This document shows positions 2,642-32,956 of a stretch of DNA of 64,000 nt, in pieces. The notes beneath the pieces are model-generated. The model had not been told where the DNA came from, made no database searches, and saw only the letters and a list, made by a program, of their open reading frames with translations. Where the stretch lies: contig NIVC01001192.1 in NCBI GenBank assembly GCA_002269645.1, forward strand, positions 124,001 to 188,000, given 5' to 3'. Position 1 is the first letter of the stretch, and each line of letters opens with the position of its first letter. Source of the stretch: Macrostomum lignano. Its lineage: Eukaryota. A program made the translations under genes and the position numbers.

Positions 2642-2834
2642 TGTAGTCTGGCTTGTTGGTGCGCGTGCACTTAGATGTGCACGTCTGGTTTTGGGGGTTG
2701 GGGTTTAGCGCTGCAGCGTGTGCGTGCTTAGGGTGGTTACACCCACCCCAACTTTGGCATTAAATATATTGGCGTGAGCCAGTGAGGTCTCCTCACGTTT
2801 TGTTATTCACTGCAATTCAACCCACGGTCTTACA
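2642..2834 (+). repeat. 5' LTR of Gypsy element
   Basis: TGTAGT...CTTACA; direct repeat of 7390-7582. Confidence 0.96.
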
Positions 2835-2835
2835 C

Positions 2836-2848
2836 TGGTGGCAGCGGT
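2836..2848 (+). promoter_or_regulatory. Primer-binding site (tRNA-Leu type)
   Basis: TGGTGGCAGCGGT, 1 nt after the LTR; complementary to the 3' end (ACCGCTGCCA-CCA) of metazoan tRNA-Leu AAG/TAG as recalled. Confidence 0.8.
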
Positions 2849-2854
2849 CTCAAT

Positions 2855-3649
2855 ATGGCCAAATCAGAGCAAGCCAGTTTATTGCCTCCAAAGTTCAGCG
2901 GCGACTCCAACGTGAGAATGTGGCTAAGCACGTTTGAAGACTTCGCCGACGACTGTGAATGGGACGACAAGAAGAAGGCAAAGAAGCTGAGACTGCTGGT
3001 GACAGGAGAAGCGCAAATCTTCGTTTGGGAGCAGCCGGCAGACGTGTCAGCCAGCTATGAAAGTCTGAAGGAGAAGCTGATCGAGTGCTTCGGCAACAGT
3101 CTGAGCTGCTACAGAGCAATGGAGGATTTTGTAGAGCGAAAGCGACAGCCCAACGAGTCGCTGAGGGAGCTCGCCTACAGCCTGAAGCTTCTCCACCTTC
3201 GGGCCCGCCCGGACGACTCCGTGGCGGCTCGGGAAAAGGACGTGAAGTTTCGCCTGATGCACCTCCTGCCATCTGCCGTGAGAGATGCGCTGTTGAAGGA
3301 CCAGGACGCGGACTCGTGTTCGCTGACCGCTATCGTCGACAGAGCTGCGCAGCTTGAGCTGGTGAGCCACGCAACTACAGCCTCATCAGCCGCGGTGTCG
3401 GTAGAAGACAGACGGCTGAGCCAGCTGGAGCAGCAGATGCAGCAGCTGACAGCCAGCGTGCGAACGGGACCACTCGGAAGAGACAGGCGTCAGAAGGGAC
3501 CCATCAAGTGCTTCAGCTGCGGCGAGCCGGGTCACATCGCTAGGCGGTGCCCAAAGGCGATCGGCAGCCGCTGCAGCCGGTGCTCAGGCAAGGGTCACTC
3601 CGCCGCGGTGTGCCCGACACCAACTGGTCAGCCGCAGGGAAACTTCTGA
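2855..3649 (+). CDS. gag: Gag (retrotransposon capsid + two CCHC zinc knuckles)
   Basis: PPKFSGD...W...F capsid start; CFSCGEPGHIARRC and CSRCSGKGHSAAVC knuckles. Confidence 0.93.
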   Translation: MAKSEQASLLPPKFSGDSNVRMWLSTFEDFADDCEWDDKKKAKKLRLLVTGEAQIFVWEQPADVSASYESLKEKLIECFGNSLSCYRAMEDFVERKRQPNESLRELAYSLKLLHLRARPDDSVAAREKDVKFRLMHLLPSAVRDALLKDQDADSCSLTAIVDRAAQLELVSHATTASSAAVSVEDRRLSQLEQQMQQLTASVRTGPLGRDRRQKGPIKCFSCGEPGHIARRCPKAIGSRCSRCSGKGHSAAVCPTPTGQPQGNF

Positions 3650-3679
3650 GGGTCGGCAGCCTGGGGCCAGCACCGACCC
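3637..3679 (+). promoter_or_regulatory. -1 programmed ribosomal frameshift signal
   Basis: G GGA AAC heptamer (3637-3643) in the gag frame, 6-nt spacer, then stem GGGTCGG (3650-3656) / CCGACCC (3673-3679). pol is in the -1 frame. Confidence 0.85.
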
Positions 3680-6600
3680 GCTCAAAAGGGGCCCTCAGAT
3701 CAGCGCCTTCAGTCTTCGTGAAGGTGCACTTTGGCAGCGTGTCAGCGCCTGCTCTGCTCGACACCGGCGCGCAAGTTTCGTTGATGGACAAGTCGCTGTT
3801 CGACAGACTGCAGTGCAAGATCGACTCCACCGACATCGGTGCGCTGCCGACGGCCGTCGACGGATCCCGGCTGCGCTGCCTTGGCCTGTCAGCAGCGGAT
3901 GTTTCGATCGGCCAGACCATCCGCGTGCGCCATCGCTTCACAGTCGTGGACGGCATCCAGCCCAACCTGATCATCGGCATGGACTTCATCGGCGAGGTGT
4001 CGCAGGCGATGACCATTGACATTAAAGAAGGCGTCGTCAGGTTCGACAGCACAGCCGTGCCTTTCAGCAGCGAGCCGGCTCGAGCAGACTGTCGCCTGGT
4101 GCCGAGTGTCCTGGTGGCGCGTGTGGCGGCAACTACGGAGTTGCCCGCCCGCAGCGAGAAGCTGGTGTGGCTCAAGGTGGATTCCAGCGGCGAGCAGGGA
4201 GTCTTTGAGCCGTCTGGGGACTTCTTGAAGTCCACTGCCGTCCTGCCGGTCCGCGTGCTGGCGGTCTCGGACGACTGCCGCATCCCGGTGAAAATGTGCA
4301 ACCTGGAAGAGGAGCCCGTGCTGCTGTACGCCAACAAGGCGGTCGGCACGTTCGAAGGCGCGATGACAGACGGGGACGGTCGCCAGGAGGCGGCCCAGGA
4401 GAACCCCGTCGGTTGGAACATGAACGCGGAGCTGCCCGAACCGGATGCTGCGAGGCTGCGACAGCTGCTGGAGAGCAACGAGGACCTGTTCGCCAGGCAC
4501 GAGTACGACCTGGGCACGACGGCGTTGCTGCAGCACCAGATCGAGCTGGAGCCGGGAGCGCGGCCACACCGGCAGGTCCAGCGCCGGCTGCCGCTGTCTG
4601 TGCGAGACCAGGTGGACAAGAAGATCGGCCAGATGCTGGAAAGCGGCATCATCGAGCCGTCGACATCGCCATGGGCCAGCAACCTGCTGGTGGTCCGCAA
4701 GAAGAACGGCGACATCAGACTGTGCACGGACTGGCGGCAGCTCAACGCCTGCACGGTCAAGGATGCGTACCCGCTGCCGCACCTGCAGCAGGCCATGGAT
4801 GCGCTTGTCGGATGCTCCTGGTTCTCCACCATCGACTGCCGGCAGGGCTACCACCAGGTGGAGGTGGCGGAGGAGGACCGGTACAAGACGGCTTTCTATT
4901 CGACGCGCGGCCTGATGCAGTTCTGCAAGATGGGCTTCGGGATGTGCAATGCCCCGGCGACGTTCCAGCGGCTCATGGAACTGGTGATGTCCGGCCTGTC
5001 CTGGGAGTCCGTGCTGACTTATATCGACGACATCATTGTCTTCAGCAGGACGTTCGACGAGCACTTAGAGAGGCTGGCGGAAGTTTTTAAGCGGTTGCGA
5101 GACGCGGGACTCAAGCTGCATAAGGCCAAGAGCGCGTTCGGCCATCGCCGGGTGCTGTACCTGGGACACCTGATCAGCGAGCAGGGCATCGCACCGGATC
5201 CCGGCAAGGTCGAGGCCATTCGCAGCATGCCCAGCCCAACGACGACCGAGGAGGTGAAGCGGTTTCTTGGAATGCTGGGGTTCTACCGTCGGTTCATCCC
5301 AGGCTTCAGCCAGACGGCGAGGGTCCTGCACGACGTCAGCGTGAAATCGAGGGACTTCGCGTGGAGCAGCGACTGCGAGCGAGCGTTCCACGAGTTGAAG
5401 GACCGACTGACGACGGCTCCGGTGCTGAGGCTGCCGGATTTTACCAAGCAGTTCGTGCTCAGCTGCGACAGCAGTCAGTTCGCCGTCGGCGCGGTGCTCA
5501 GCCAGCTGCACAGTGACGCCGAGCTGCCTGTGTCGTTCGCCTCTCGCACCCTCAACAAGGCCGAGCGCAACTACTCGGCGACCGACCGCGAGCTGCTGGC
5601 GCTGGTCTGGAGTCTGAAGCACTTCAGGACGTACCTGCTGAGTGTCCCGAGCTTCAGAGTCTACTCGGACCACCGGCCACTGCAAGGTCTGCTGGCAACG
5701 AAGGACCCCGAAGGTCGGCTGGCGCGATGGCTTTCTACGCTGCAGCAGTTTTCGTTCGAGCTGCTGTACCGGCCTGGCAGGGACAACGTCGTGCCGGATG
5801 CGCTGAGCCGGGTGGCCGGCACGCGCCTGCAGCCTCGGTGGGACGACAGCCGCCTGCACGAGGAGCAACTGCAAGACCCGCTGCTGAGCAAGGTGTTCCA
5901 GGCGCTGACCGACGGGATTGACAGCCTGTCCGATTCATGGGCGGCGCAGGTTCGCGAGCTGCTGGACGAGGCCTCGGTGAGCTCGGCGGGTGTCCTGCTG
6001 GTGGGTGGCCGGCCAGTCATTCCCGGTCACCTGCGGCCGCATTTTCTGCAGCAGGCGCACTCGTGCGACCAGAGCGGACACCTCGGCGTCGACAGGACCG
6101 GAGCGAGATTGTCTGAGCGCTGCTGGTGGCCTGGTCTGCGACGGGACGTCGAGAACTGGGTGGCCAGCTGCGCGGTCTGCCTGGCCAAGAAGAGTCCAAC
6201 CAAGCCGCAGAAGGCGCCGCTACAGTCGACGTGCCAGCCGACGGCTCCGTGGCAGCTGGTGCAGATCGACATCAAAGGGCCGCTTCCGCGTACGACTGAT
6301 GGCAAGGCGTACATCCTGAGCATGTGCGACGCCTTTTCCAAGTGGATGGAGACGGCAGCCCTGGCGGCGATCGACGCGGTGACGGTGGCGGAGGCGCTGC
6401 TCAAGTCGGTGGTTCTGCGTCACGGCGCTCCTCAGGTGCTGCACAGTGACCAGGGACGGCAATTCGAGAGCGAGGTGTTCGGCCGGCTCTGCGAGCAGCT
6501 GGGCGTTGAAAAGACGCGCACGTCGCCGTTTCATCCGAGCGGCAACGGAATCGTCGAGCGAGGCAACCGGACGCTCGGCGATATGCTGGCGACGACGGTG

Positions 6601-7353
6601 GCCGAGAACCAGCAGGATTGGGACAGCAAGCTGCCGTATGTGACCTGGGCCTACAACACCTCCGTGCACAGCACCACCGGCCTCAGTCCGTACCAGGTCC
6701 TCCACGGCTGGCCACCGAGGCTGGCTCTCGAAAGCTGGCTGATAAGCGGCGACCGGCCGGCAGCCGACGGTGGACATCACGGCTTCCTGCGGCGGACTCA
6801 GGAGAACCTGCAGAGCGCTTTCGACACAGTGCACGGCCGACTGCGGAGCGCCCAGGTCGAGCGCAACCGGCTGGCCAACCAGGACTCTCGGTTCGTGCCG
6901 TTCGAAGAGGGCCAGCTCGTGATGCTGCGCAACTCCGTCATCAAGCGCGGCCAGACGCGGTGCCTGAGCGCCAAGTGGAAGGGGCCGTACCGAGTCCTGA
7001 GGCGCCTGGGCGAGGTCAATTACCGCATCCAGGACGAGACCGGCCGCAGGCGCCGGCTGGTGGTGCACCACGACCGCCTCAAGCGCTTCGTGCAGCGGCG
7101 GGCGTCACTGGAGCTTCCGGCCGCAGCAGACCACCAGCCGCCGGCCGCCGACTCCAACAACGACGGCACCGTCGCTGAGCCGCCCGGGCAGGCGGCCGAT
7201 CCTGACGGCGACGCGGTGACCTTCTGGCCCGAGCTGCAGGCAGACGAGGCACCCGAGGAGCAGCCGGCGGCACCGGCCGAGCTGGTCACGGTTCCCCGGC
7301 GGTCGGCGAGAGAGCGGCGGCCACCTGACTTGTACATGGCGGGCTTTGCTTGA
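3640..7353 (+). CDS. pol: Pol polyprotein (protease, RT, RNase H, integrase), expressed via -1 frameshift
   Basis: LLDTGA (PR); YPLP and YIDDII (RT); CDSS...GAVLSQ, ERNYS, DHRPL (RH); H-H-C-C, QIDIKGP, SDQGRQF, VERGNRTL, WKGPY (INT). Uninterrupted frame. Confidence 0.96.
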   Translation, partial: KLLRVGSLGPAPTRSKGALRSAPSVFVKVHFGSVSAPALLDTGAQVSLMDKSLFDRLQCKIDSTDIGALPTAVDGSRLRCLGLSAADVSIGQTIRVRHRFTVVDGIQPNLIIGMDFIGEVSQAMTIDIKEGVVRFDSTAVPFSSEPARADCRLVPSVLVARVAATTELPARSEKLVWLKVDSSGEQGVFEPSGDFLKSTAVLPVRVLAVSDDCRIPVKMCNLEEEPVLLYANKAVGTFEGAMTDGDGRQEAAQENPVGWNMNAELPEPDAARLRQLLESNEDLFARHEYDLGTTALLQHQIELEPGARPHRQVQRRLPLSVRDQVDKKIGQMLESGIIEPSTSPWASNLLVVRKKNGDIRLCTDWRQLNACTVKDAYPLPHLQQAMDALVGCSWFSTIDCRQGYHQVEVAEEDRYKTAFYSTRGLMQFCKMGFGMCNAPATFQRLMELVMSGLSWESVLTYIDDIIVFSRTFDEHLERLAEVFKRLRDAGLKLHKAKSAFGHRRVLYLGHLISEQGIAPDPGKVEAIRSMPSPTTTEEVKRFLGMLGFYRRFIPGFSQTARVLHDVSVKSRDFAWSSDCERAFHELKDRLTTAPVLRLPDFTKQFVLSCDSSQFAVGAVLSQLHSDAELPVSFASRTLNKAERNYSATDRELLALVWSLKHFRTYLLSVPSFRVYSDHRPLQGLLATKDPEGRLARWLSTLQQFSFELLYRPGRDNVVPDALSRVAGTRLQPRWDDSRLHEEQLQDPLLSKVFQALTDGIDSLSDSWAAQVRELLDEASVSSAGVLLVGGRPVIPGHLRPHFLQQAHSCDQSGHLGVDRTGARLSERCWWPGLRRDVENWVASCAVCLAKKSPTKPQKAPLQSTCQPTAPWQLVQIDIKGPLPRTTDGKAYILSMCDAFSKWMETAALAAIDAVTVAEALLKSVVLRHGAPQVLHSDQGRQFESEVFGRLCEQLGVEKTRTSPFHPSGNGIVERGNRTLGDMLATTVAENQQDWDSKLPYVTWAYNTSVHSTTGLSPYQVLHGWPPRLALESWLISGDRPAADGGHHGFLRRTQENLQSAFDTVHGRLRSAQVERNRLANQDSRFVPFEEGQLVMLRNSVIKRGQTRCLSAKWKGPYRVLRRLGEVNYRIQDETGRRRRLVVHHDRLKRFVQRRASLELPAAADHQPPAADSNNDGTVAEPPGQAADPDGDAVTFWPELQADEAPEEQPAAPAELVTVPRRSARERRPPDLYMAGFA

Positions 7354-8905: not shown

Positions 8906-11150
8906 ATGAAGTGCAAGTGCGTTATAATATTGGTTTCGCTTTTGACGTGTAAGTAAAAATACCCATTAATAATAGGACCAGTTATATGGTCCAGGGTGGC
9001 AGTAATTTGCACGCACTTGCACGTTATTCTGTCTATTCATTTTTTCTATCCCTTGGTGTCGCAAACTCTATATTAATTACTGAGAATTTATTTCTCGTTC
9101 GCTAAGATTTTCACTTGTCATATTAGCTGAGGAATGTGTTTTACAGGTTCAGTAGGACTCTTCAATGATAGCACGGAGACCTGGCAGTAATGCCAGGGAC
9201 ACTTAAAGCTGTTCTTAATTGCAATTTGAATCAACCAACGACGAAGAGAAACGAGCTGTGCTGCTTTGTACGTGCAGCAGAGACACGCTGAGATCGACCT
9301 CTTCTGCTGACTGTTTAAACAAAGCATTGAAGGTCATAAATGTTGAAATCGGTGGGCGATAATTCATAGAGGGTAAATTTTCACACCCTTTAAAATTCGC
9401 TAATTGGGAACCTGCAAAAAAGGGCATTAATGGTTTATAATTAAGTCAGTTCGATTGTTTGGCTCTTTCAAGTTGTTGAATAGTTTGCAGTCGCTAGTTG
9501 CTAATTGGTTGGCAGTTGCTAGTTGCTAATTGGTTGACAGTCGCTAGTTGCTAATTGGTTGGCAGTTGCTAGTTGTTGATTGGTTGACAGTTGCTATTTG
9601 CTAATTGGTTGGCAGTTGCTAGTTGCTAATTGGTTGACAGTCGCTAGTTGCTAATTGGTTGGCAGTTGCTAGTTGCTAATTGGTTGGCGGTTGCTAGTTG
9701 CTAATTGGTCTGCAGTTGCTAGTTGCTAATTGGTTGACAGTCGCTAGTTGCTAATTGGTTGGCAGTTGCTAGTTGCTAATTGGTTGGCGGTTGCTAATTG
9801 TTAATTGGTTGACAGTCGCTAGTTGCTGATTGGTTGGCAGTTGCTAGTTGCTAATTGGTTGGCAGACTGGCAGTTGCTAGTTGCTAATTGGTTGGCAGTT
9901 GCTAGTTGCTAATTGGTTGGCAGACTGGCAGTTGCTAGTTGCTAATTGGTTGGCAGACTGGCAGTTGCTAGTTGCTAATTGGTTGGCAGTTGCTAGTTGC
10001 TAATTGGTTGGCAGACTCGCAGTTGCTAGTTGCTAATTGGTTGGCAGACTGGCAGTTGCTAGTTGCTAATTGGTTGGCAGTTGCTAGTTGCTAATTGGTT
10101 GGCAGACTCGCAGTTGCTAGTTGCTAATTGGTTGGCAGACTGGCAGTTGCTAGTTGCTAATTGGTTGGCAGACTCGCAGTTGCTAGTTGCTAATTGGTTG
10201 GCAGACTCGCAGTTGCTAGTTGCTAATTGGTTGGCAGACTGGCAGTTGCTAGTTGCTAATTGGTTGGCAGTTGCTAGTTGCTAATTGGTTGGCAGTTTCT
10301 AGCTGCTGATTTTTATAATCGCTACCAAAAATTGTATAAAACTGCAAAGTTAATCAAATTCTACGCGCCAGGTGATGCCATTTGTTCGAGGTGAACTAGA
10401 TGAGCCTGCAGTGCCAGTGGACTCTGCAGCCTGCCAACTACGATAATCCGAGGCAGATGTACATTCGTGTACCCGTTATCAACTTTGACACCCAACGATA
10501 GGTCTGAGGCTCAGTGCTGCATCTCTACAGCCAAAGTCGATGTGTTCAGCCTAAAGTTAAAACTGGACGATAGTGAGTTAGCCGTTTTAATTTAACTTGA
10601 ATTATAATTTTACAATTTTCGTTTTTAAAAACAAACTAATCGTATAATCTTGCATTTCAGCAACGTACCGAAATGAGTTCTGGTGCTCAAATAATTCAGT
10701 AAAAGTCAAGAGCCCAATTGGGAATTTATGGAACTCGTGAGTGTCTTGAAGCATCTGCGATTTTGGACTGGTTATTCCCTGAAGTATTAATTATCATATT
10801 TGCTCTCTTACCTTTGCTCAGGTCGTACAAGCTGGCTTTGGAGTTCCGCTCTGACGATAAGCAAGTCCGGTCCGGTCCGGTTCTTTGAGGGCTCCTGCTA
10901 ACACCTGACACTTGATCTGATAACACCTGAGATTACACCTGCTGAGGCATTCAACATCGCAAAGAATTACCTTGGCAACGTCTTCACGGTTCCTAAAAAC
11001 AGAAACGACTCAGCCTTTTTCCGTCCCTTTATTCAGCGAAGTGAGCATTGCGTTTATTATATGGCATGCTTTATCGCCTGTTGATCGATTTGTTGGTATC
11101 CCAATCATTGCAGACTCGGACAGAGCTGGCGAGTTCCCATTCGAGTTTCT
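8906..11150 (+). pseudogene. CUB-CTLD receptor pseudogene P1 (B-type)
   Basis: Exon 1 MKCKCVIILVSLLT (8906-8948, GTAAGT donor). Exon 2 frameshifted with a stop; exons 3 and 5 carry indels; exon 6 is cut off next to a SINE. Homologous to the intact copy at 47296-50221. Confidence 0.85.
9487..10310. repeat. 25-bp minisatellite (GTTGCTAGTTGCTAATTGGTTGGCA, with 33-bp variants) in intron 2 of P1
   Basis: Direct tandem repeats; variants add GACTGGCA or GACTCGCA. Confidence 0.95.
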
Positions 11151-12516: not shown

Positions 12517-12568
12517 TTTCTACGCTTGTACCTTAAAAACTGCTAAAAGCCGACTACTCTTCTGTCGG

Positions 12569-13485
12569 TGAAGAGTTTAAGAGTGGTGATCAGTCACTCA
12601 AAAACTCCCACTTCTAGACACGGGGGAACAAGTGCCTAGGTATTTATCAGTTCAAATAACTTACTTCAGCGGATCCTCTTGGGGTCGGCAGCCGGTGGAG
12701 TTCTGTGGCGCGTCGGGATAGCAAGCTTGCTGAGCGGTTACGGCGACCGGTTCCGGTGAACCACTGTTTTTCTTTGGTGTCCTTAACTTTATCTGTGGGT
12801 CGACCAAACGAGAGCGAATCAGAACTTCTTAACGGTCCTCGAGCTCGGAATTCACAATAGAACGTGCGCCCTAATGAACAATTGAATTCTCTAATTTTCT
12901 GTGATAGGTCCTCCTGAAGGGCGGCTTCTTCGTTACGTCCGAAACGTAACGGATAACTCAATTAAATCAATAAATCCTCTAGGAATATCCTAGGAAACAA
13001 GGAGGCCTTTCTCAAATGTATCGACAATGAACTGCTCTCGTATACTCAATCAATCACTTTATTAGCGCTACTAACAATTAACTAAATCGGGTAAACGCTT
13101 ACCAATTGGACAGGGATGGTCCCTCAGAGATTGGTCTTCTTATTTCTTCGGTGTCTTCTTAGAGACCGCTCCGAGTCTGAATTTTGACTTGAATTTTCAC
13201 TTATATTTATAGCAAAATTTTGGAGAAAAACCGGTTTGGGATTGGGTATTTACTTAGGTCAAAAATGTTTGATTAAGCGGTCATGCATGTTTGAGCATTA
13301 CCATATATGGAGTTAAACAAATACAGCTGTTGAAATCCGGTTCCTTGATCAAACAATGTAGGGTTCTAAATCATTCTGTTTGCGCGTGATTCCTAAAATA
13401 GATATGACTCATTTTGAAAGAAATTGACTTCCTTAGAATATTACTTTAAGTAGAGCATTACGGTATGGTCTAATAACTCTCTACA
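12569..13485 (-). repeat. 3' LTR of env/RING element
   Basis: TGTAGAGAG...CTCTTCA on minus. CArG box CCATATATGG at 13301-13310, TATAAATA at 13204-13211, AATAAA at 13058-13063 (minus). Confidence 0.95.
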
Positions 13486-13500
13486 ATATCTCCCCTTTTC
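13486..13500 (-). promoter_or_regulatory. Polypurine tract
   Basis: GAAAAGGGGAGATAT on minus, abutting the 3' LTR. Confidence 0.85.
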
Positions 13501-13678
13501 ACGAAAAATTCGTCCCGAATTTTAAAGTTAAAGCGGTGAAGTGGGGTTTTATCTTCTAATAAACATGAAAATGTATTTAAGGATTAGAAATTTTGAACCA
13601 GTAGTAGTATAGTAGATGGATAGGTAGATAGGTAGGTCACATTGTTATTGTGTTGCTTGGCAGGATGCATTGTTATTG

Positions 13679-14278
13679 TTAATAGGAAAGCGTATTATTC
13701 AGTATATCGTTTACTTTGGTTGTCAATCTCGCGAGTGGCCACAGTAAGTGCTGTATCGGCGTAAATTGTGTTGATTCGGTGGCGTTGAGGAATTCCAGGT
13801 AGATCTCTTCAGTTGTACTCGTAGTATTTATTGGATGCGCCGCATATTGACGTACCAAGTCAAAAAGATATTCCAAATGGTCTCTCTTGTTGAATGGTAT
13901 TGGCCAGGTTCGTATAGCTGTTGCTAGTTCCTTGGCCGTCATACTGTCCATGGTCTCCTTTGTAAGTTGGATCTTTGGTAATGTTGTTGTTCCGGCGTAA
14001 ATTTCCTTAGATATTGGCGCTGCACAAGTTATGCAATGCTTATAGTCGCGGCACCGAATTTTTAGAGCACAATCTCGGCAGACCCAGTGTCCGTTGGCGC
14101 ACATCCTTTGTTGCGGTGTTGTATTGCATACCTGGCACAGGGTAGGTGGTGCGCGGCATAGCGGGCATTTGTCTATTCTATCCGTTGTGCAGCAGTTATA
14201 GCAGAACTTATGCCCATGCTGACAGTAGACATACTGTTCAGTGTCTTCATAACAAACAATGCACTCGTCGCTATCCAT
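13679..14278 (-). CDS. Accessory protein B: two SINA/SIAH-like RING fingers + helical C-terminal domain (199 aa)
   Basis: CIVC...CQHGHKFCYNC...CPLC and CQVC...CANGHWVCRDC...CITC. Shares the IRTWPIP motif with the adjacent ORF. Confidence 0.85.
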   Translation of the reverse strand: MDSDECIVCYEDTEQYVYCQHGHKFCYNCCTTDRIDKCPLCRAPPTLCQVCNTTPQQRMCANGHWVCRDCALKIRCRDYKHCITCAAPISKEIYAGTTTLPKIQLTKETMDSMTAKELATAIRTWPIPFNKRDHLEYLFDLVRQYAAHPINTTSTTEEIYLEFLNATESTQFTPIQHLLWPLARLTTKVNDILNNTLSY

Positions 14279-14350
14279 GTCTGAAAATGGTCAATTTGAT
14301 AAGTAATATCTGTGCAAGAATGGTTGCAATATCTGTGGGTGCATGGTATT

Positions 14351-15001
14351 TTAATCAATTTCTGAAGCGGAACTATTATAGTCATATGATTCTTGGGGTG
14401 GTAATATATAAGACAAGTCCTCATTACGCAGAATGAGTGCAGGTAGAGCTGTACAGAGGATGGGGCATGGGTGAAAATTCATATCGTTAACAATTTTAAA
14501 CAGCTTATGTTCAATTTCTTGTGGAGATAATTGCCGGAGTCTAGAACCGTAGGAAGAGGAATAGCGAACGAGGTATTTACGTGTTTTATGAGCAGCACGT
14601 GGTATGGGCCATGATCTGAGGCGGATAATTATAGCATGTGATGGAAAAAGAGCATAAGTGAATGGGTGAAGCTGTAGGTTGTAGTCCGCTTGAATGCATG
14701 CAAGTTTGTTGTTAACTTTAGGTAAAGGGGTGGCATCGCATATAGGACACTGACAAATGGAGCGATAAGCAAGCTTCTTAATACATTGTGTGCACATAAA
14801 ATGTTGATTTAAGCAATATTGTTCAGTGCGCCAGGAGTTGCATATCATGCATTGACGGAGATTACCTCGACACATAGGGCAATTTTTTAAAGGTTTTTTG
14901 TAATGTGCAAGGCTTAAGCAAGAACCACACACCTGGTGTCTATTGACACATATACAAGGTAGTTTACATGAAAATTCTCCGAGACAGATAGGACAATCCA
15001 T
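14351..15001 (-). CDS. Accessory protein A: two SINA/SIAH-like RING fingers + helical C-terminal domain (216 aa)
   Basis: CPIC...CVNRHQVCGSC...CPMC and CMIC...CLNQHFMCTQC...CPIC; LRSWPIP motif. Confidence 0.85.
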   Translation of the reverse strand: MDCPICLGEFSCKLPCICVNRHQVCGSCLSLAHYKKPLKNCPMCRGNLRQCMICNSWRTEQYCLNQHFMCTQCIKKLAYRSICQCPICDATPLPKVNNKLACIQADYNLQLHPFTYALFPSHAIIIRLRSWPIPRAAHKTRKYLVRYSSSYGSRLRQLSPQEIEHKLFKIVNDMNFHPCPILCTALPALILRNEDLSYILPPQESYDYNSSASEID

Positions 15002-15132
15002 TGTCGTGTTTGTCGTAGTTGTGTGAGCGTTTGTAGGAAAACAAGGATTTAGTCGCCTCTTACGACAAGCTTGAGGAAGCTGTAGTGCTATTCTTTATCC
15101 CGGTCACTACACGGGGACATGAAGCGAATAAT

Positions 15133-18100
15133 TTAACGAGGTCTTAGGTTGTACGTATGACCGACAGGTGGTGCGTTTGTTGTTTGTGTTTCGGCGTGTG
15201 CAGTGGCAATGTGTTTATTTGTTGTTTTTGTGTGGTCTGGATTTTGTAGGTCTGGGAGGAATGTAGTGTCGTTAGTGATACGTTTTAGACGTTGAATGTG
15301 AACATAGAACTGAGGTTGATGTGGATCCTGGATATTAGCGAGGCGTGCTGATACTAGAGAAGGCTTAGGTAGGTCTCGCTTATGTCGTTCTATGACATCT
15401 TTTCTCTGATAGGTTCCATTTACTACCTTCAGGAAAACATTCTTATCCATATCCTTAAGCGCGATTGGTATTTCTTGGTCGGAGAGGATTAGTTGCTCGT
15501 CCTTGTTTTTACATTTCAAGTGTGTGTAGCTTGGTTGCTTTGGAAATGTAAGAGCCAAATCTCCTGAGTCGGCAAGGAAGGTGTTAGATAGCAGTTTCCC
15601 TTGAACAGTGTGATATTTTTGCAGCTTGCAGTCAATTTCAGTTTTTACTTCCCATGCAGTGAAATATTTGCGGGTTCGGCTGGGCTCCTCATATCGGGAA
15701 TCCGATCTATATTCAATTTGGTATCGATAGTCATGGAAATAAATCGGTGCTAGGGGTAAATTTTGAGCTTCTTCTTTGTTGTAGTTAGGGGTAGAACAAT
15801 ATCCAGAGCTGTAGTGACACTGGTCGAGTGGTAGCTGTAAGGATTCCATGTTGTCAAATGGATTGTGGTAGAATAAAACATTTCGGATGAGGTAGCTATT
15901 GTAGACTGAGTATGTAGGCCATCGTGATTGATGATAATGGACATATCTTCCATCGGCTACATTTTTTGTGCGAAATAGCTGTGCTCCGCTGGCGGACGTC
16001 TCATGAAGTTTTAATTGACCATCTTCGGAAAACAGAGTTTGATTCCACCGAAGGCATTCTTCTTGTGATACCATCATCGAAGTTTGCCAATACCTGATTC
16101 GGTTCCATTGTACCAGCCAAACCTTTTCAATTTCATCCTTGTCTCGGAAGCACACAATTCCCATTTGTCGATGCTTCTTTGTATTTGCTTTGTATATTTC
16201 AATAGTTAGTGGTAGTGGCTTGGTTTGGTTTGTCTTAAAGTAACTGCATTTGATTTCCGTAGGAATCTTGTAAATGACTGGCTGGATGTCTCCATCAGTG
16301 GGACAGATCATTGGAGATGGAGACGGCAGTACCGTGGGAACAATTGCCATCATCAAGATCGTGAGGAAGCATTGCAGTAGCGGATGTTTTTTCTTTCGTC
16401 TTGTTGGTACTGGTGGAGTGTCTTCAATCTCGTCATGACTATCTTCAGGATACGGCGGAGGAGTAAGGCGAGTCGAAAAGTGCCATTTGTTAGAACATGG
16501 TAATGGTGTGGGTGGCTGCGATTGCAACATCGGACGCATAAAGTTGGTTGATTTTGATATATTGGTAAGATGTGTAGTTGTATTCTCATCAGTTGGAGTG
16601 TTAACCGGTTCCATTATTGTTATCGGTTCATCATATTCGCTTTCATAGTCTAGGTTCATTGAAACATATGTGTCATCCTCCGTCTGTACGAACTTTTCAT
16701 CTGTCGAATGGTTAGATTGTGTGTTCGTGGCCTTGTCATGTTTCCATTTTTCGTGGACTGGACTAGGGGAGACAATATTTTCATAGTCTGGTTCCTGTGT
16801 TGGAGGTGTTTCTGACAGGTCTATATCGTCGACTAGGACCTGCAACATGTCAACGCTTTCTTCAAAGATGTTTTGAGAAGTTGCTGGATCTCTGTCTTCT
16901 TCAAGTGTTGTCATTTCTTTACGATCCTGGAAATTGTCATCTCGGTGAGTTTCCGAAAGATTGTCGATCGTCGGAACTTTAAATAGATTGCTTTGTTGCT
17001 TAGAAATAGTTTGTTGTTGTCTTTTGTTTTCTCGGAAGACTGGACTTGCTTTAGAAGAGGTAGGAATGGGTGGATCTTCTTCAAACAGAGAATCCATCAT
17101 GCAGCTACTTTCGCTGCTTGTGCTATCTTTTCGTTTTTCAAACTCCTCAAGGACATTGATTGTGAAATCCGGCATAAGATCCTCTATCTTAAACTCTGGT
17201 TCGATGACTTGAGTGTATTCCGGTTCAATAGCTTGAGCATATTGTCTGCGGACCTGAGTAGGCTGTCTTGGAGGAGGAGGATTTCTTTGTTGTCGATAAG
17301 GTACCAAGGCATTTCCTTGTCTATTCTGTGGTGGGTTCCAATTGCGATTTTGAGGACGAGTCCAATTTTTTCTTCTGTTGTCATTATATTGTCTTGGATT
17401 GCCACGTGATCGGCAGTCTCTGGTGTAATGACCAATTCTTCCACAGGTGTAACAAGTGGGTGGCGGAGCGTATCTCTGTCGCTGTGGCATGATTGCAGAA
17501 GTTTGGTACTGCTGCATGAGTTTGCTCAATTGTTCTCCCAATTGTGTCGTATCACTACTACGAGAAGTCAGGAGTGGGGCACTTGCTTCCCATTGTATGC
17601 CGCAACGAATTAATTGTTCCTCTGTCTCAATGGTTTCTCTTAACAACCTGTCTCGCAGCGAAGGTTGAGCATTATTAATGACATGGAGGATTAGGCTTTG
17701 TTCTTGGTCAGCAAGGCGTTGTCTTTCTCGTGCAGCTAGTTCTGCTGGTCCGATAGGCTGAGCTCCTGGGTTCGGTGGTGGTGGCTGGTGCAACGCTTTA
17801 ATAATTTTGCGGACGTCATCGACGAAAGTAAGGAAGGATTCCGTCGGACTCATTTTTCGATTATGAAGTTTGTGTAGAAGCACAGATCGATTGGTTCCAC
17901 ATCTGGCGAATTGTGCTCTCAGTTGTGTAACTAAAGTATGATAGTCTTGCTGTGCGGCGGCATTTAGTTTGCCATAAATTTCTCGAGCAGTACCTTCTAA
18001 CAGTGGAGGAAGAAGAAGTGCCTTTTCTGGATTTTGTAGTCCGTATTCGCGAGTTACAAGGTCGAAGTGTTCAATGAAGGTGTTAAAATCTTTATCCATG

Positions 18101-18207
18101 GTATACATTCCAACAGTTTCCTTGACATCGCGATGCACTGTAGGGTTTCTTCGAGCCATATTTTCAAATGGGAACGGCAAGAGGACCAGATCTGGATCAA
18201 TTTCCAA
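15133..18207 (-). CDS. Gag - acidic linker - internal signal peptide - Env-like ectodomain - integrase C-terminal tail fusion (1024 aa)
   Basis: Gag-type N-terminus (FNTFIEHF...LLEGTAREIY) and CYTCGRIGHYTRDC knuckle. RRKKKH followed by hydrophobic PLLQCFLTILMMAIVPTVLP. Cys-patterned ectodomain, RHKR furin-like site, ends VHIQRLK...YNLRPR. Confidence 0.85.
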   Translation of the reverse strand: MEIDPDLVLLPFPFENMARRNPTVHRDVKETVGMYTMDKDFNTFIEHFDLVTREYGLQNPEKALLLPPLLEGTAREIYGKLNAAAQQDYHTLVTQLRAQFARCGTNRSVLLHKLHNRKMSPTESFLTFVDDVRKIIKALHQPPPPNPGAQPIGPAELAARERQRLADQEQSLILHVINNAQPSLRDRLLRETIETEEQLIRCGIQWEASAPLLTSRSSDTTQLGEQLSKLMQQYQTSAIMPQRQRYAPPPTCYTCGRIGHYTRDCRSRGNPRQYNDNRRKNWTRPQNRNWNPPQNRQGNALVPYRQQRNPPPPRQPTQVRRQYAQAIEPEYTQVIEPEFKIEDLMPDFTINVLEEFEKRKDSTSSESSCMMDSLFEEDPPIPTSSKASPVFRENKRQQQTISKQQSNLFKVPTIDNLSETHRDDNFQDRKEMTTLEEDRDPATSQNIFEESVDMLQVLVDDIDLSETPPTQEPDYENIVSPSPVHEKWKHDKATNTQSNHSTDEKFVQTEDDTYVSMNLDYESEYDEPITIMEPVNTPTDENTTTHLTNISKSTNFMRPMLQSQPPTPLPCSNKWHFSTRLTPPPYPEDSHDEIEDTPPVPTRRKKKHPLLQCFLTILMMAIVPTVLPSPSPMICPTDGDIQPVIYKIPTEIKCSYFKTNQTKPLPLTIEIYKANTKKHRQMGIVCFRDKDEIEKVWLVQWNRIRYWQTSMMVSQEECLRWNQTLFSEDGQLKLHETSASGAQLFRTKNVADGRYVHYHQSRWPTYSVYNSYLIRNVLFYHNPFDNMESLQLPLDQCHYSSGYCSTPNYNKEEAQNLPLAPIYFHDYRYQIEYRSDSRYEEPSRTRKYFTAWEVKTEIDCKLQKYHTVQGKLLSNTFLADSGDLALTFPKQPSYTHLKCKNKDEQLILSDQEIPIALKDMDKNVFLKVVNGTYQRKDVIERHKRDLPKPSLVSARLANIQDPHQPQFYVHIQRLKRITNDTTFLPDLQNPDHTKTTNKHIATAHAETQTTNAPPVGHTYNLRPR

Positions 18208-18505
18208 AGGATTTTCCAGATTGGACTTTCAAAGTGGCGAACAAGTGTTGTGTGTGTGTGCAAGCTCTTATTTACTTAAAGGAAGAAAGGAAAATGGACA
18301 CGGGGGCAAAAAAAATTCTGTGTTGCCTTTACCAAAGAAAGAAATTGAGATAGGATATTCGCAAATTTAACAAAAGTATAAAACGGTGCACGAAGAATCA
18401 AAGGGTCTCTATGCAAACAATGGCGGTTCGGTAAAAAGTTCAGAAAAATTTGCGCAAAGGACTTGTGTCAAAGTACTTTCAGCGATCTAGCCTGGTAGCG
18501 CTTGA

Positions 18506-18523
18506 GCCTGGGCGAGATCACCA
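18506..18523 (-). promoter_or_regulatory. Primer-binding site (tRNA-Val-like)
   Basis: TGGTGATCTCGCCCAGGC, 2 nt from the 5' LTR; the implied tRNA 3' end (CCTGGGCGAGATCA-CCA) resembles tRNA-Val as recalled. Confidence 0.65.
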
Positions 18524-18525
18524 GT

Positions 18526-19442
18526 TGAAGAGTTTAAGAGTGGTGATCAGTCACTCAAAAACTCCCACTTCTAGACACGGGGGAACAAGTGCCTAGGTAT
18601 TTATCAGTTCAAATAACTTACTTCAGCGGATCCTCTTGGGGTCGGCAGCCGGTGGAGTTCTGTGGCGCGTCGGGATAGCAAGCTTGCTGAGCGGTTACGG
18701 CGACCGGTTCCGGTGAACCACTGTTTTTCTTTGGTGTCCTTAACTTTATCTGTGGGTCGACCAAACGAGAGCGAATCAGAACTTCTTAACGGTCCTCGAG
18801 CTCGGAATTCACAATAGAACGTGCGCCCTAATGAACAATTGAATTCTCTAATTTTCTGTGATAGGTCCTCCTGAAGGGCGGCTTCTTCGTTACGTCCGAA
18901 ACGTAACGGATAACTCAATTAAATCAATAAATCCTCTAGGAATATCCTAGGAAACAAGGAGGCCTTTCTCAAATGTATCGACAATGAACTGCTCTCGTAT
19001 ACTCAATCAATCACTTTATTAGCGCTACTAACAATTAACTAAATCGGGTAAACGCTTACCAATTGGACAGGGATGGTCCCTCAGAGATTGGTCTTCTTAT
19101 TTCTTCGGTGTCTTCTTAGAGACCGCTCCGAGTCTGAATTTTGACTTGAATTTTCACTTATATTTATAGCAAAATTTTGGAGAAAAACCGGTTTGGGATT
19201 GGGTATTTACTTAGGTCAAAAATGTTTGATTAAGCGGTCATGCATGTTTGAGCATTACCATATATGGAGTTAAACAAATACAGCTGTTGAAATCCGGTTC
19301 CTTGATCAAACAATGTAGGGTTCTAAATCATTCTGTTTGCGCGTGATTCCTAAAATAGATATGACTCATTTTGAAAGAAATTGACTTCCTTAGAATATTA
19401 CTTTAAGTAGAGCATTACGGTATGGTCTAATAACTCTCTACA
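18526..19442 (-). repeat. 5' LTR of env/RING element
   Basis: Copy of 12569-13485 at offset 5957; no differences seen by eye. Confidence 0.95.
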
Positions 19443-19839
19443 TCGGGTCTGTATGCCGGTTTTATCTTTTGTTCAAATTCCCCTTTTACAGCCAACGTTA
19501 GCACCAATGCGAGTTCAAGTGTGAGAGAGAATGTGCCTTCGGTTCTTTTATATACATGCAGATATCTTTGTGGCCTCTAAGCTCTTGAAAGAGTAAAAAT
19601 TATATAATGCTTTCTGGATTGCTTGCTCATTTTATGTTGTTCAGGCACTTAGAAAGATACAAATGTTTATTCCCCATTGGTAGTAGCAAGTGGGACATAG
19701 AATTGAAACAGACTTTTTTAATAGTTTTGGCCAGCTTCAAATAGTCGTCAGACTACGTCGCGACTGACTCTCCTGATTAATACAAACGATTCGTTTTCAG
19801 GCACCCATATTGTACTTACTGATTTCAGCCAAGTTAACG

Positions 19840-22378
19840 ATGCTCTTTCAATCCATCCGTTTCGCCGTTTCAATCTCCATTCTGATGATGACCGGTGAGT
19901 GCTGGCGCCAGTCGCTATACATGTCCTCAAATTCGAGAAATTTATCGGTACCCGTTTTAATATCGAGGTACCCATGGACGTGATTGCAAGAGACTAATGT
20001 TCAAAGGAATAAGTTTTGCGACTTTCATATTTTCGATTCTAAATCCAGAACCACATACTAGAAGGCTTAGAAATACAGTTTCGAGTATAAATTGAAACCG
20101 TCTTAAAAGTAGCTAAATTCTAAGGTAACATAAGAGTCACTTGTAGTAAAAATAAAATTGTAATGCAGAATTGCAAAACGGAAAATAATGGTCAATTATC
20201 AAAATTTCATGGTGTCTGTTTCGATAGAAATGGTTACATGACAGTCTTTGTGCCAAGATCATGCTATAAAAGAATAGTACTAGCCTCTGTACTAAATTTT
20301 ATACTATTGATAATTAGCGCTTAAATCTAAAGAACTATGCCTAAATTTTTAGTAGCGACTGTTGGAGCTGAGGATCAGCACTGCATTGACAAGCCCGTTA
20401 GAAATATCAGCGTTGAAATCGGTGACGAGAACCCGCAGCGGGTAAATAAAATTCGTCGATTTTTAAGAAACGTTTCCCCGTCCTACTTAAGTGGTGCTTG
20501 CTCTGTACATGTACACCTAGTGTCAATTGCGTGCATGTGTGCATATTCTTGTACATGTGTTGTTTCAGTGAAGATTGCTTTTACTACGGATGAAATATTG
20601 GCCAATGTTTAGGGTGAGTATTTTTTTTCACTTCAGGTGATGACTTATATTCGAGACGAGCCAGGCTACCAGGTGAACCTGCGGTGCAAGTAGACTCTGC
20701 AGCCTGCCAACTACGATAATCCGAGGCAGATGTACATTCGTGTGCTCGTTATCGACTTTGACACCAGCGATGTGTCTGGGGATCAGTGCAATATCTCCAA
20801 TCCAGATATCGATATTCTCACATTTTCACTGAAGCAAAATTTGAGTACGTGGCTTTTAGTATCAATGATCTTTTTTGTGTTACCAATATAAACTCAAGCA
20901 GAACTCGGGTGTTTCAGGGGAAAGGGATATTCATCCCTGTAATGGAGGCCAGAGTACGTACATGTCGATGCAGACTTCAGGTGAGTAATTTATGTGATTC
21001 TTTGTTTAATTTTCATTTATTTGAATTCAACTGCTTATTCTAAGCTGCAACATTGGCTCCTGTGTAATTTGCAGCCGAAGAGAAGCCACAATACATGTGC
21101 TCAAGCAAGTCATTCAAAATCAAGGAACAAATCGTGAACTTGTGGGACCCGTGAGTGTCTTGAAACATCTGTGCTTTTCGTGCATCATGTGGAAATGGAT
21201 TTTGGTATTTGCTCTCTTACCTTTGCTCAGGTCGTACAAGCTGGCTTTGGAGTTCCGCTCTGACGATAAGCAAGTCCGGTCCAACGCCAAGGGAGTGCAG
21301 GTGGATGTGCAGGTGCTGGGCAGAGACTATTGCCACAGGACCATGCTGTTCTTTGAGGGCTCCTGCTATCTGATAACACCTGAGATTACACCTGCTGAGG
21401 CGTTCAGCATCTCGAAGAATTACCTTGGCAACGTCTTTACGGTTTCTAAGAACAGAAACGACTCAGACTTTTTCCGTCCGTTCGTTCAGCGAAGTGAGCC
21501 TTTTAACATTGCTAAACATAGCTGTATGTATCTGCTAGTCGATTTTATGCAAAGCGTACTGTTTCTGCATCGCGTATTGCACTAGCTGATGTAGTAGCTA
21601 TTTACAGTTCTCTAACTGGAATGTTTTGCACTTCAGACAACGACAGAAACGGTGAGTTCCCATTTGAGTCTCCGCTGTCCCTGGTCGGCAGAAAGATGTG
21701 GACCGGCTACTTTGTGGATCGGCCAGCCCAGAGCCCCGTCAACGGAGCCCTGTTTATGAACCCGGCTAAGAAATGCTGTCAGGAGAGGCGAAATATGACT
21801 GTGTGAGTTACCTTATAAAATATTTCTCTCAGTTTTGATAGAGCCTTGCTTTGAATTTTGCTAAGGTCATCAGTTATTGTCCCATTTATACGTATTTTAG
21901 CTACATCAGTAGCACTGTCACCCTGGCTGTGGAGCCAGTTTGTGCCGTTGCCATGGTGATTACTAGTGGTTCCCGTGTGAATTTCACCTGCGAATCGTTG
22001 AGCTCAAAGCTACCAGCTCTGATCGAGTTCAAGCAGATTCCCGCCATCAAAGGCGACACGCATCCGCAACTGTTCACCACTTGCGACACGATGCCTGCGA
22101 AGCAGCTCGACACGAGTTCCGCACCGACAACAACTGTTACTGAAGCCGAGCCTCAGTCTACAAAGACTGTCATTGTTATCGCTTTAGTTGTCATAGTAGC
22201 TTTTATAATCGCCGTAATTGTAGTTGCCATTGTAATATTCTTTAAAAGAAGAGCCAGCCCGCAAAGCGGTGGCCAAACTGAAGCTGAGACTCCTGCTGGA
22301 CCGGAGAAAGTGCCTCTGAATGCACGCGGTGAGGATGGGGAGGCTTCTCAGCCGAGCAAGACCGACCCGACAGTCTGA
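19840..22378 (+). pseudogene. CUB-CTLD receptor A1 (A-type) with a nonsense codon
   Basis: Exons 19840-19894, 20353-20441, 20637-20844, 20918-20980, 21075-21150, 21231-21493, 21637-21802, 21901-22378, all GT-AG and in phase. TGG>TAG at 20691 in exon 3. Confidence 0.88.
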
Positions 22379-22581
22379 GATTCATATTGACGAGAAAGAA
22401 GTTGAAAGCGAATTGTTTGAATTAGTTTGTTAATTTTAGCTTAACAGTTTATTGCTGTGTTGTATGCTTATACATAAAAATTAAGAAATTAAAACACAGT
22501 GGAATGTTGCTGATTTTTTTGATTATTAAAAGTTAAAATCAACATAGATTGTAATAAATTCTTTCTTACATGGGATTTCAG

Positions 22582-23090
22582 TTCCTCTTGCTCTGGCGGC
22601 AGGTGTTGTGTATAAGTTCTCTTGTTCTGTTGACCAGAACATTACCTATATAGGTAAAACTAAAAGGCACCTGTACACCAGAGTCAGAGAGCATTGGTTA
22701 AAAAGGTCGGCTATCCAAGACCACCTGCTCTGTTGCAACAGTTGTTGCGAAATTGAGCAAACTCAGCAGTTTAAAATTATTGATCGGTGTAGAACTGATT
22801 TTAGGCTCAACATACTTGAATCCATGTACATTAAAGACCAAAAACCTAATCTGAATATTCAGCTCTCCCATAGTGGTGCGGGCCATTTGCTCAAGGTATT
22901 CTAAGTAAAGGCACTAGTCTGAACAATGTACTTGCAATCTATGCTTAACATTTTTTGGAAAATTCTGCCCATGACATGCCCTTTGGACTGTACAGTTAAC
23001 ATTTGTTCACTTATAAAGTTGTTGTGTGAGTTAAAAATACACCAGACCCTGAAGATGGTCATTGCTGGACCGAAACGCGTCGGAAGAAAG
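22582..23090 (+). mobile_element. 5'-truncated Penelope-like element (GIY-YIG endonuclease tail + 3' region)
   Basis: VVYKFSC...YIGKTKRHLYTRVREH...SAIQDH...ILESMYIK...PNLN, followed by a hammerhead motif. Confidence 0.85.
23047..23083 (+). ncRNA. Minimal hammerhead ribozyme of the Penelope element
   Basis: CC-CTGAAGA-T-GGTC(ATTGCTG)GACC-GAAA-CGCG-TC-GG: conserved core, stem II, palindromic stem III. Confidence 0.75.
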
Positions 23091-23588
23091 AATTAATTAT
23101 AATCTATGTTGATTTTAACTTTTGTATTTCTCTGCCTGCTAAAGCGTGCTACCTTACCTCAATTTTCTGATTATTATATTTTACCGTTGTATTAGCATCA
23201 TGACGCACCGGTTTTCAAGCTTAGACCTTCGATTGTAATATTAACGTTGACTATATTTTATTCATATTAGTTTATTCTATTTACGTTTAGCGTTTTCTCT
23301 GGTCCTCGCGCAAAACAACTGAGACCCTAAAACGCAAAAGCACGTAAAAAATTGATTCCTTGATTTCAACTTTTGTTGAACTACCTTCGTTTGGAAGTAT
23401 TTTGATTAAAAGAAACGCTAGATTACAAGCAAAGAATTATGAATCTGCCGGTTGCCCAATCTACAGTATTTTAGATAGGTAAACCTAAATCAGTAAAAAG
23501 TGCCCGGAAATTGTTTTTTAACAGAATTTGTACGAATAAAACCTGGGCGTTGCACACGCATGGGACAAAAAAGTATATGGAAGGGTAG

Positions 23589-29772: not shown

Positions 29773-30217
29773 TTTCTACGCTTGTACCTTAAAAACTGCT
29801 AAAAGCCGACTACTCTTCTGTCGGGTCTGTATGCCGGTTTTATCTTTTGTTCAAATTCCCCTTTTACAGCCAACGTTAGCACCAATGCGAGTTCAAGTGT
29901 GAGAGAGAATGTGCCTTCGGTTCTTTTATATACATGCAGATATCTTTGTGGCCTCTAAGCTCTTGAAAGAGTAAAAATTATATAATGCTTTCTGGATTGC
30001 TTGCTCATTTTATGTTGTTCAGGCACTTAGAAAGATACAAATGTTTATTCCCCATTGGTAGTAGCAAGTGGGACATAGAATTGAAACAGACTTTTTTAAT
30101 AGTTTTGGCCAGCTTCAAATAGTCGTCAGACTACGTCGCGATTAACTCTCCTGATTAATATAAACGATTCGTTTTCAAGCACCCATATTGTACTTACTGA
30201 TTTCAGCCAAGTTAACG

Positions 30218-32753: not shown

Positions 32754-32956
32754 GATTCATATTGACGAGAAAGAAGTTGAAAGCGAATTGTTTGAATTAG
32801 TTTGTTAATTTTAGCTTAACAGTTTATTGCTGTGTTGTATGCTTATACATAAAAATTAAGAAATTAAAACACAGTGGAATGTTGCTGATTTTTTTGATTA
32901 TTAAAAGTTAAAATCAACATAGATTGTAATAAATTCTTTCTTACATGGGATTTCAG

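What the first reader, a model, noticed from the sequence alone, without database searches (positions are those of the whole stretch)
15376..18207. Gag and an Env-like glycoprotein encoded in one ORF with an internal signal peptide
Seen: capsid + CCHC (17413-17454), ~300 aa acidic linker, basic cluster + 20-aa hydrophobic stretch (~16325-16386), then an ectodomain with N-glycosylation sequons and the Cys pattern MICPT...IKC...GIVC...VSQEECLRW...QCHYSSGYC...W...DC. Inference from recalled motif spacing: related to class III fusion proteins (rhabdo/chuvirus G-like) and to the env region of nematode Cer1-type elements. Env placed between gag and pol differs from the usual gag-pol-env order and resembles capsid-signal-glycoprotein processing in RNA viruses.
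Basis: partly seen in the sequence, partly recalled or inferred. Interest (0 to 1): 0.78.

Follow-up and report, generated by a model that had tools for sequence, protein, structure and literature searches.

The report
Truncated gag-env retrotransposon lacking its enzymes
This is a young jumping gene that has lost its enzyme genes and the back half of a herpesvirus-gB-like envelope gene in one internal deletion and likely spreads with help from full-length relatives, whose capsid-envelope-enzyme layout is already published.

Summary
The motifs are real, but the ORF is a deletion product. It lies in a 6,874-bp LTR element (12569-19442, minus strand; identical 917-bp LTRs, TSD, PBS, PPT) with no pol. 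The frame (15133-18228) reads Gag, linker, internal signal-like segment, the N-terminal half of an envelope up to a furin-type site (RHKR), then an integrase tail. Longer genomic copies have one frame, Gag-Env-PR-RT-RH-IN. The window form lacks 4,416 nt of it, joined at a 5-nt microhomology, and occurs at 6 places (5 insertion sites). The whole envelope is a class III, gB-like fold (Foldseek E 7e-22; VIA Z 12.5). The window keeps only the head, without central helix or membrane anchor, so it is unlikely to fuse membranes. GAG-ENV-POL elements with gB-type Env are published for flatworms, nematodes and bryozoans (PMC13524379), and this scan noted the layout before on other DNA of this genome. 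Cer1 is not the right comparison. Not found in my searches: the nested pol-less forms (6.9, 4.7, 3.2 kb; 8 of the 10 youngest elements) and two conserved tandem-RING ORFs, one with weak splice support. Interest 0.3.

The parts
12569..19442 (-). Whole element, 6,874 bp, pol-less LTR retrotransposon
18526..19442 (-). 5' LTR, 917 bp, TG...CA, identical to the 3' LTR
12569..13485 (-). 3' LTR, 917 bp
19443..19446 (-). Target-site duplication CCGA (other copy at 12565-12568); the empty site is seen in the next host repeat unit at 29821-29824
18512..18523 (-). Primer-binding site; same 12 nt as listed for the published Mlig_errantivirus_2
13486..13502 (-). Polypurine tract before the 3' LTR
15133..18159 (-). 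ORF1 from the first ATG of Gag (stop-to-stop frame 15133-18228, 1031 aa): Gag, linker, signal-like segment, env head, integrase tail
17413..17454 (-). CCHC zinc knuckle
16450..16461 (-). PPPY motif (late-domain-like; motif class recalled); present in this subfamily, absent at this place in sister families
16327..16401 (-). Basic cluster plus hydrophobic stretch: predicted internal signal peptide or signal anchor
   Evidence: no SignalP available
15376..16314 (-). N-terminal half of a gB-like class III envelope (beta-rich head), ending in the furin-type site RHKR (15387-15376)
15344..15348 (-). Deletion joint, 5-nt microhomology; 4,416 nt of the longer form (env C-half, TM, PR, RT, RH, most of IN) are absent
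15133..15343 (-). Integrase C-terminal tail, in frame, ending YNLRPR
14351..15001 (-). ORF2, 216 aa, two Cys-rich RING-like units at the N-terminus
   Evidence: no significant Pfam hit; paralog of ORF3
13679..14278 (-). ORF3, 199 aa, tandem RING (Pfam zf-C3HC4_3 E 7.6e-08); splice acceptor at 14281, two bases before its ATG
18750..19059 (-). GT..AG intron inside the LTR; a second donor at 18621 joins to the ORF3 acceptor

Best explanation
This is a recently inserted, pol-less deletion derivative of a Ty3/gypsy element whose longer copies encode Gag, a gB-like class III envelope and Pol in one reading frame, and it is likely copied and integrated in trans by enzymes from those longer copies. 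Shown: one 4,416-nt in-frame deletion at a 5-nt microhomology fuses the env head to the integrase tail; LTRs, PBS and PPT are kept; the form sits at five insertion sites with their own TSDs. Inferred: the deletion arose by template switching during reverse transcription. In the parent, the internal hydrophobic segment would send the envelope into the ER, the TM helix would return the chain to the cytosol, and Pol would be cut out there; Gag would be freed by the element's protease or by signal peptidase. In the window form the same segment would translocate a head fragment that furin could release at RHKR; with no central helix or anchor it should not fuse membranes. The two RING ORFs are kept accessory genes, likely read from LTR-spliced RNAs.
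For: Structure of the element. Longer copies with one 2,502-2,535-aa frame in the order CCHC, hydrophobic segment, env, furin-type site, TM, PR, RT, RH, IN; RT closest to Ty3 RT among solved structures (E 1.3e-60). Joint found at 6 places in G000, 5 distinct flanks, and in 4 of 4 runs laid, one not guessed as RNA; skipped ends GC..CG, so not a splice. gB fold of the whole env: profile search E 1.1e-17, model pLDDT 76.7, Foldseek PDB E 7e-22, BFVD nyami/herpes/chu-like glycoproteins, VIA Z 12.5, rmsd 7.6, 421 aligned. The long helix of the model (322-369) starts at the joint. Purifying selection on env between long copies: dN/dS 0.14 (head), 0.06 (C-half); RING ORF2 dN 0.078, dS 0.393. Two more microhomology deletion forms, 4.7 and 3.2 kb. 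Contigs of two RNA-like runs cross the joint without a difference (X3 15087-17406, X7 15087-16135).
Against: Trans-mobilisation, translocation and cleavage were not tested. The end of the signal segment lacks a clear Ala-X-Ala site in this subfamily, so it may stay as an uncleaved anchor. The window form differs from the nearest long copy at 23 bases in 960 codons, 18 of them in codons 829-934, so its direct parent is not among the copies that I compared. TSDs of the 6.9-kb form all hold CG (5 of 5 against 4 of 24 other family insertions), which a shared integrase does not explain. The runs are only guessed to be RNA and are contigs.
Confidence: 0.88

Rival explanations
1. One reading: a working Gag-Env fusion gene, a complete capsid-signal-glycoprotein unit as in RNA viruses, with pol downstream.
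For: One frame with CCHC, a signal-like segment, sequons and a gB-like head; the order is true of the longer copies.
Against: No pol inside the LTRs; env stops 11 codons after RHKR; no second hydrophobic segment; the rest is integrase tail.
Confidence: 0.03
2. The short form is a selected satellite or defective-interfering element: the deletion is kept in frame and just behind the furin-type site because Gag plus a secreted env head (and the RING genes) help it spread or block the full-length element.
For: In frame; joint 11 codons after RHKR; five insertions; 8 of the 10 elements with LTRs 99% or more like the window's lack pol; contigs of RNA-like runs cross the joint.
Against: One deletion in three is in frame by chance; the joint sits at a microhomology; two other deletion forms that drop env altogether have also inserted; the six copies are 100% alike over the env kilobase searched, so selection on the fragment cannot be measured.
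Confidence: 0.12
3. The short form is an assembly artefact or a spliced RNA copied back into the genome.
For: The element does splice at other places.
Against: The joint is in 4 of 4 runs from 4 studies and in 6 genomic places with different TSDs; the skipped part ends GC..CG with 5 shared bases, not GT..AG.
Confidence: 0.02

Closest known systems
GAG-ENV-POL 'ancient errantiviruses' with HSV/gB-type ENV of Nematoda, Bryozoa and Platyhelminthes (Chary and Hayashi, eLife 2026, PMC13524379; it cites Sacco et al. 2022 for nematodes)
   Same: Ty3/gypsy pol, gB-type env between gag and pol, ectodomain between a signal segment and a TM helix, several near-identical copies (against 17-20, 46, 65).
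   Different: The window copy lacks pol and the env C-half. In the main text 'single ORF', 'polyprotein', 'fused' and 'RING' had 0 occurrences; figures were not seen.
Platyhelminthes_Rhabditophora_Mlig_errantivirus_2 (PMC13524379, Supplementary file 1; 16 copies)
   Same: Same 12-nt primer-binding site, gB-type env. Named relatives of the env come from the same flatworm species.
   Different: Distance from 5' LTR end to 3' LTR end is 9,728 nt in the table, 10,375 in the window's long form and 9,612-9,890 in 6 of 7 sister-subfamily copies (10,782 in the seventh). The published entry is therefore more likely the sister subfamily (63-68% env identity). No sequence comparison was possible.
[quoted passage not shown]
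   Same: Internal deletion with cis signals kept; microhomology deletions are described there too.
   Different: Here env is cut in half and Gag is whole; three nested forms coexist; two RING ORFs are kept in two of them.
Herpesvirus glycoprotein B and nyamivirus/chuvirus-like glycoproteins (class III fusogens)
   Same: Fold of the whole env (Pfam Monjiviricetes_fusion E 5.6e-05, under its cut-off).
   Different: 10-15% identity; the window fragment has the head only.
C. elegans Cer1
   Same: Ty3/gypsy element; PMC13524379 places Cer1 sister to one flatworm gB-type element in its tree.
   Different: Cer1 is listed there as non-env; PMC10309623 (S3 Fig legend) found only 9 conserved residues behind the old env claim.

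Membership tests
Ty3/gypsy LTR retrotransposon (Metaviridae) | LTRs TG...CA with TSD, PBS and PPT | tested here: met
Ty3/gypsy LTR retrotransposon (Metaviridae) | pol in the order PR-RT-RH-IN with Ty3-like RT (longer copies) | tested here: met
   in the window copy only the integrase tail is left
GAG-ENV-POL HSV/gB-type errantivirus | env between gag and pol (family level) | tested here: met
GAG-ENV-POL HSV/gB-type errantivirus | gB-type (class III) ectodomain | tested here: met
   on the env of a longer copy 98% identical to the window over the shared part
GAG-ENV-POL HSV/gB-type errantivirus | intact GAG, ENV and POL in the copy itself | tested here: not met
   window copy: 4,416 nt deleted; it is a derivative, not an intact member
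GAG-ENV-POL HSV/gB-type errantivirus | [quoted passage not shown] | not tested
   no tree with the published POL set was built
Mlig_errantivirus_2 | same primer-binding site | tested here: met
Mlig_errantivirus_2 | same element length and over 98% identity | tested here: inconclusive
   length fits the sister subfamily better; its sequence was not in the supplement places seen
Functional class III fusogen | central trimer helix, C-terminal domains and TM anchor present | tested here: not met
   window frame leaves env at model residue ~322; helix 322-369 and TM absent
Functional class III fusogen | ER translocation, cleavage, membrane fusion | not testable with these tools
   needs expression
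Non-autonomous LTR element | no enzymes, cis signals kept, several independent insertions | tested here: met
Cer1-type element | close RT relation to Cer1 and a CERV-like ORF | not tested
   no Cer1 sequence at hand; papers describe Cer1 as non-env
RING E3 ubiquitin ligase (ORF2, ORF3) | C3HC4-type RING domain | tested here: met
   ORF3 Pfam zf-C3HC4_3 E 7.6e-08, above cut-off; ORF2 by paralogy only
RING E3 ubiquitin ligase (ORF2, ORF3) | ubiquitin ligase activity | not testable with these tools
   needs an assay

The most novel reading that the evidence does not exclude
The family is an enveloped retrotransposon with its own accessory tandem-RING ubiquitin ligases, read from LTR-spliced RNAs, and the 6.9-kb form is a defective-interfering satellite that keeps Gag and the RING genes and sheds a soluble gB head at the furin site, out-copying or blocking its full-length helper.
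Probability: 0.12. Interest if true: 0.65.

Novelty: new member of a known kind. Interest (0 to 1): 0.3.

Why it matters
What remains of use: a single Gag-Env-Pol frame must cross the ER membrane twice, and how it is processed is untested in what I read; the natural deletion series (whole; Gag plus env head; Gag only) gives ready comparisons for that question; and conserved RING genes in a retrotransposon would, if they are ligases, be a counter-defence tool of a kind better known from large viruses (recalled).

Tried and rejected
Single-sequence PDB search with the window's env part: no viral hit (8 chance-level hits); Pfam did not see env in the window ORF. Atlas look-up gave no answer. Word-indexed homolog search: 1 hit for the env, none for ORF3 among 35 candidates; no evidence of absence. 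AlphaFold on ORF2 alone: pLDDT 30.2, unusable, not searched. No run is on record as RNA: no RNA holder listed. No joint that skips env to link gag with pol by GT..AG was listed in 4 runs, but cover of pol was patchy, so this says nothing. The 13718/17377 joint was first taken as a possible splice; it has a 7-nt microhomology and exists as DNA at 3 places. The idea that the sister subfamily's integrase explains the CG-holding TSDs: 0 of 7 sister 3' flanks began with a CG-holding 4-mer; rejected. No tRNA gene in the window. Sacco et al. 2022 is not held. Cer1 link rejected from the two papers, not by sequence.

Full report
Observation. The frame lies on the minus strand and is open from 18228 to 15133 (1031 aa; Gag ATG at 18159). 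The hydrophobic stretch is the only one in the frame. The frame goes on 80 residues past RHKR and ends in YNLRPR.

The element. Two identical 917-bp LTRs (18526-19442, 12569-13485) enclose ORF1 and two Cys-rich ORFs; there is a CCGA target-site duplication, a PBS and a PPT, and the next unit of the host tandem repeat shows the empty site. No protease, RT, RNase H or integrase core lies inside the LTRs. The pol at 3544-7353 is on the other strand and outside.

The family. A search of G000 with 1 kb of env gave 40 scored matches of 87 candidates: 6 at 100%, 4 at 94-98%, the rest at 67-84%. I fetched the surroundings of 18 of the other 39. Those at 100% have the 6.9-kb form; those at 94-98% continue after env with PR, RT, RH and IN. 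Two of them, and one sister copy, have a single frame of 2,502-2,535 aa in the order CCHC, hydrophobic segment, env, furin-type site, TM, PR, RT, RH, IN. The RT is closest to Ty3 RT among solved structures. A search with the env C-half gave 140 matches, several in frames of 2,458-2,866 aa from more distant families; six of the long frames that I checked there (C1672, C247, C1189, C4296, C106 and the part-covered C1695) show the same order. Outside this genome, 62 representatives matched; of 24 scanned, three long ones have env upstream of a whole pol and several join Gag and env in one protein.

The deletion. Against a long copy the window form skips 4,416 nt (1,472 codons), with 5 shared bases at the joint and ends GC..CG. 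The joint is at 6 places in G000; two share a flank, so 5 insertion sites, with TSDs of their own in the five copies where both flanks were read. It was seen in 4 of 4 runs from 4 studies. LTR pairs differ by 0-2 bases: very young. An RT search found 5 places at 94% or more. Of the 10 elements whose LTRs match the window's at 99% or more (best 40 of 460 candidates scored), 8 lack pol: four 6.9-kb, one 4.7-kb and three 3.2-kb copies. The window form differs from the nearest long copy at 23 bases in 960 codons, 18 of them clustered, so its parent was a mosaic or an unseen copy.

The envelope. A 53-sequence alignment (14 genomic env stretches and 39 of the 62 hits) found herpesvirus gB in the PDB at E 1.1e-17. 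The model of the whole ectodomain (pLDDT 76.7, pTM 0.54) matched HSV gB at E 7e-22 with TM-scores of only 0.40-0.46, nyamivirus, herpes and chu-like glycoproteins in BFVD, and gB at Z 12.5, rmsd 7.6, 421 aligned (a second look at Foldseek's hits). The window keeps model residues 1 to about 322, the beta-rich head; the 48-residue helix (322-369), the later domains and the TM helix are gone. Between long copies env is under purifying selection (dN/dS 0.14 and 0.06; 0.06 and 0.05 in a more distant pair). Selection on the fragment itself cannot be measured.

Expression. No run is on record as RNA. Three runs show GT..AG joints in the neighbouring host gene that the fourth lacks, which suggests RNA. 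Contigs of two of them cross the deletion joint with no difference; they cannot say which of the six copies is read. An intron inside the LTR was seen in 5 of 6 RNA-like runs and 0 of 2 others, and a joint from an LTR donor to an acceptor two bases before the ORF3 ATG in 2 of 6, both from one study and with only 29 bases on the short side: weak support.

RING ORFs. ORF3 passes the Pfam RING cut-off; ORF2 is a paralog with the same tandem Cys pattern. ORF2 is conserved (dN 0.078, dS 0.393 against C583; 0.068 and 0.391 in another pair; a third pair 0.095 and 0.341; close pairs give no signal). Function as ligases is inferred from the domain alone.

Mechanism. Shown: anatomy, deletion, copies, fold. 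Inferred: template switching as the cause; copying in trans by longer copies; in the parent, two passes through the ER membrane that leave Gag and Pol in the cytosol; in the window form, a translocated head that furin could free but that should not fuse. Against a clean signal-peptide reading, this subfamily lacks the Ala-X-Ala end seen in C3126, C106 and C1695.

What is known. PMC13524379 (seen: abstract, sections 5 and 6 part 1 of 2 each, sections 11 and 14, passages, supplement searches; no figures) reports GAG-ENV-POL elements with gB-type ENV in Nematoda, Bryozoa and Platyhelminthes and cites Sacco et al. 2022 (not held; seen only as a citation). Its Supplementary file 1 lists Mlig_errantivirus_2 with the same PBS; by length it fits the sister subfamily better. 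The 30 of 58 flatworm places seen in Supplementary file 2 were Schmidtea elements. PMC10309623 (12 of 22 passages) and PMC13524379 treat Cer1 as lacking a convincing env. PMC5408684 (12 of 19 passages) describes extra ORFs and a non-autonomous env-bearing family in rotifers, with no 'RING'. Searches for RING cargo, pol-less derivatives, this host's enveloped elements and gag-env-pol polyproteins (listings only) showed no description of these extras; subscription papers are mostly missing. This scan's own notes already cover the layout, the RING genes and the budding-like motifs on other DNA of this genome; none shown described the pol-less forms, and a sequence look-up returned nothing.

Verdict. 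A real feature, a new defective member of a published kind. Interest 0.3.

Noticed in passing
G000 C1192 (window), C2869, C525, C352, C301/C2828: All 5 TSDs of the 6.9-kb form hold CG (CCGA, CTCG, CTCG, GACG, TCGA) against 4 of 24 other insertions of the family (Fisher p 0.001, noticed after the fact; one unclear flank and duplicate flanks left out; 11% of window 4-mers hold CG). Unexplained.
   Followed up: partly
L079 (C4582); L080-L082 (C70, C3022, C1130): Two further deletion forms with near-identical LTRs: 4.7 kb (part of Gag in frame with the integrase tail, both RING ORFs kept) and 3.2 kb (Gag ending just after the knuckle; joint seen in 3 of 3 RNA-like runs).
   Followed up: yes
L033 (C4009), L031 (C391), L035 (C272), L043 (C1154): The number and type of RING ORFs vary between subfamilies: three or more paralogs in some copies, a 5' fragment only in several sister copies; the second RING ORF of C583/C262 is only about 33% like the window's.
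   Followed up: partly
L056, L057, L061-L065, L071, L073, L074: More distant gag-env-pol families in the same genome (25-28% env identity) carry a 220-290-residue insert in the middle of env, some with two furin-type sites.
   Followed up: no
window 2786-7353 (+): A separate GC-rich (about 64%) gypsy element with an open PR-RT-RH-IN frame of 1,269 aa and a probable gag frame before it; no env seen; LTRs not checked.
   Followed up: no
window 7583-42886: The element sits in one unit of a ~10.4-kb tandem host repeat with 25-bp satellite blocks; the unit holds a spliced gene on the + strand (GT..AG joints at 19893-21642 in RNA-like runs) ending in a frame with a TM-like segment (21842-22378).
   Followed up: no
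window 22528-23123: 55-bp inverted repeats around a short frame (22548-22904) with a GIY-YIG-like motif (recalled), possibly a Penelope remnant; repeated at 32903-33498.
   Followed up: no
L050 residues 1283-1295; L052, L067, L056, L062: PTAP and YPxI motifs in the cytosolic tail between env TM and protease in several long copies (PTAP absent in C583 and C1189); lost from the window form.
   Followed up: partly
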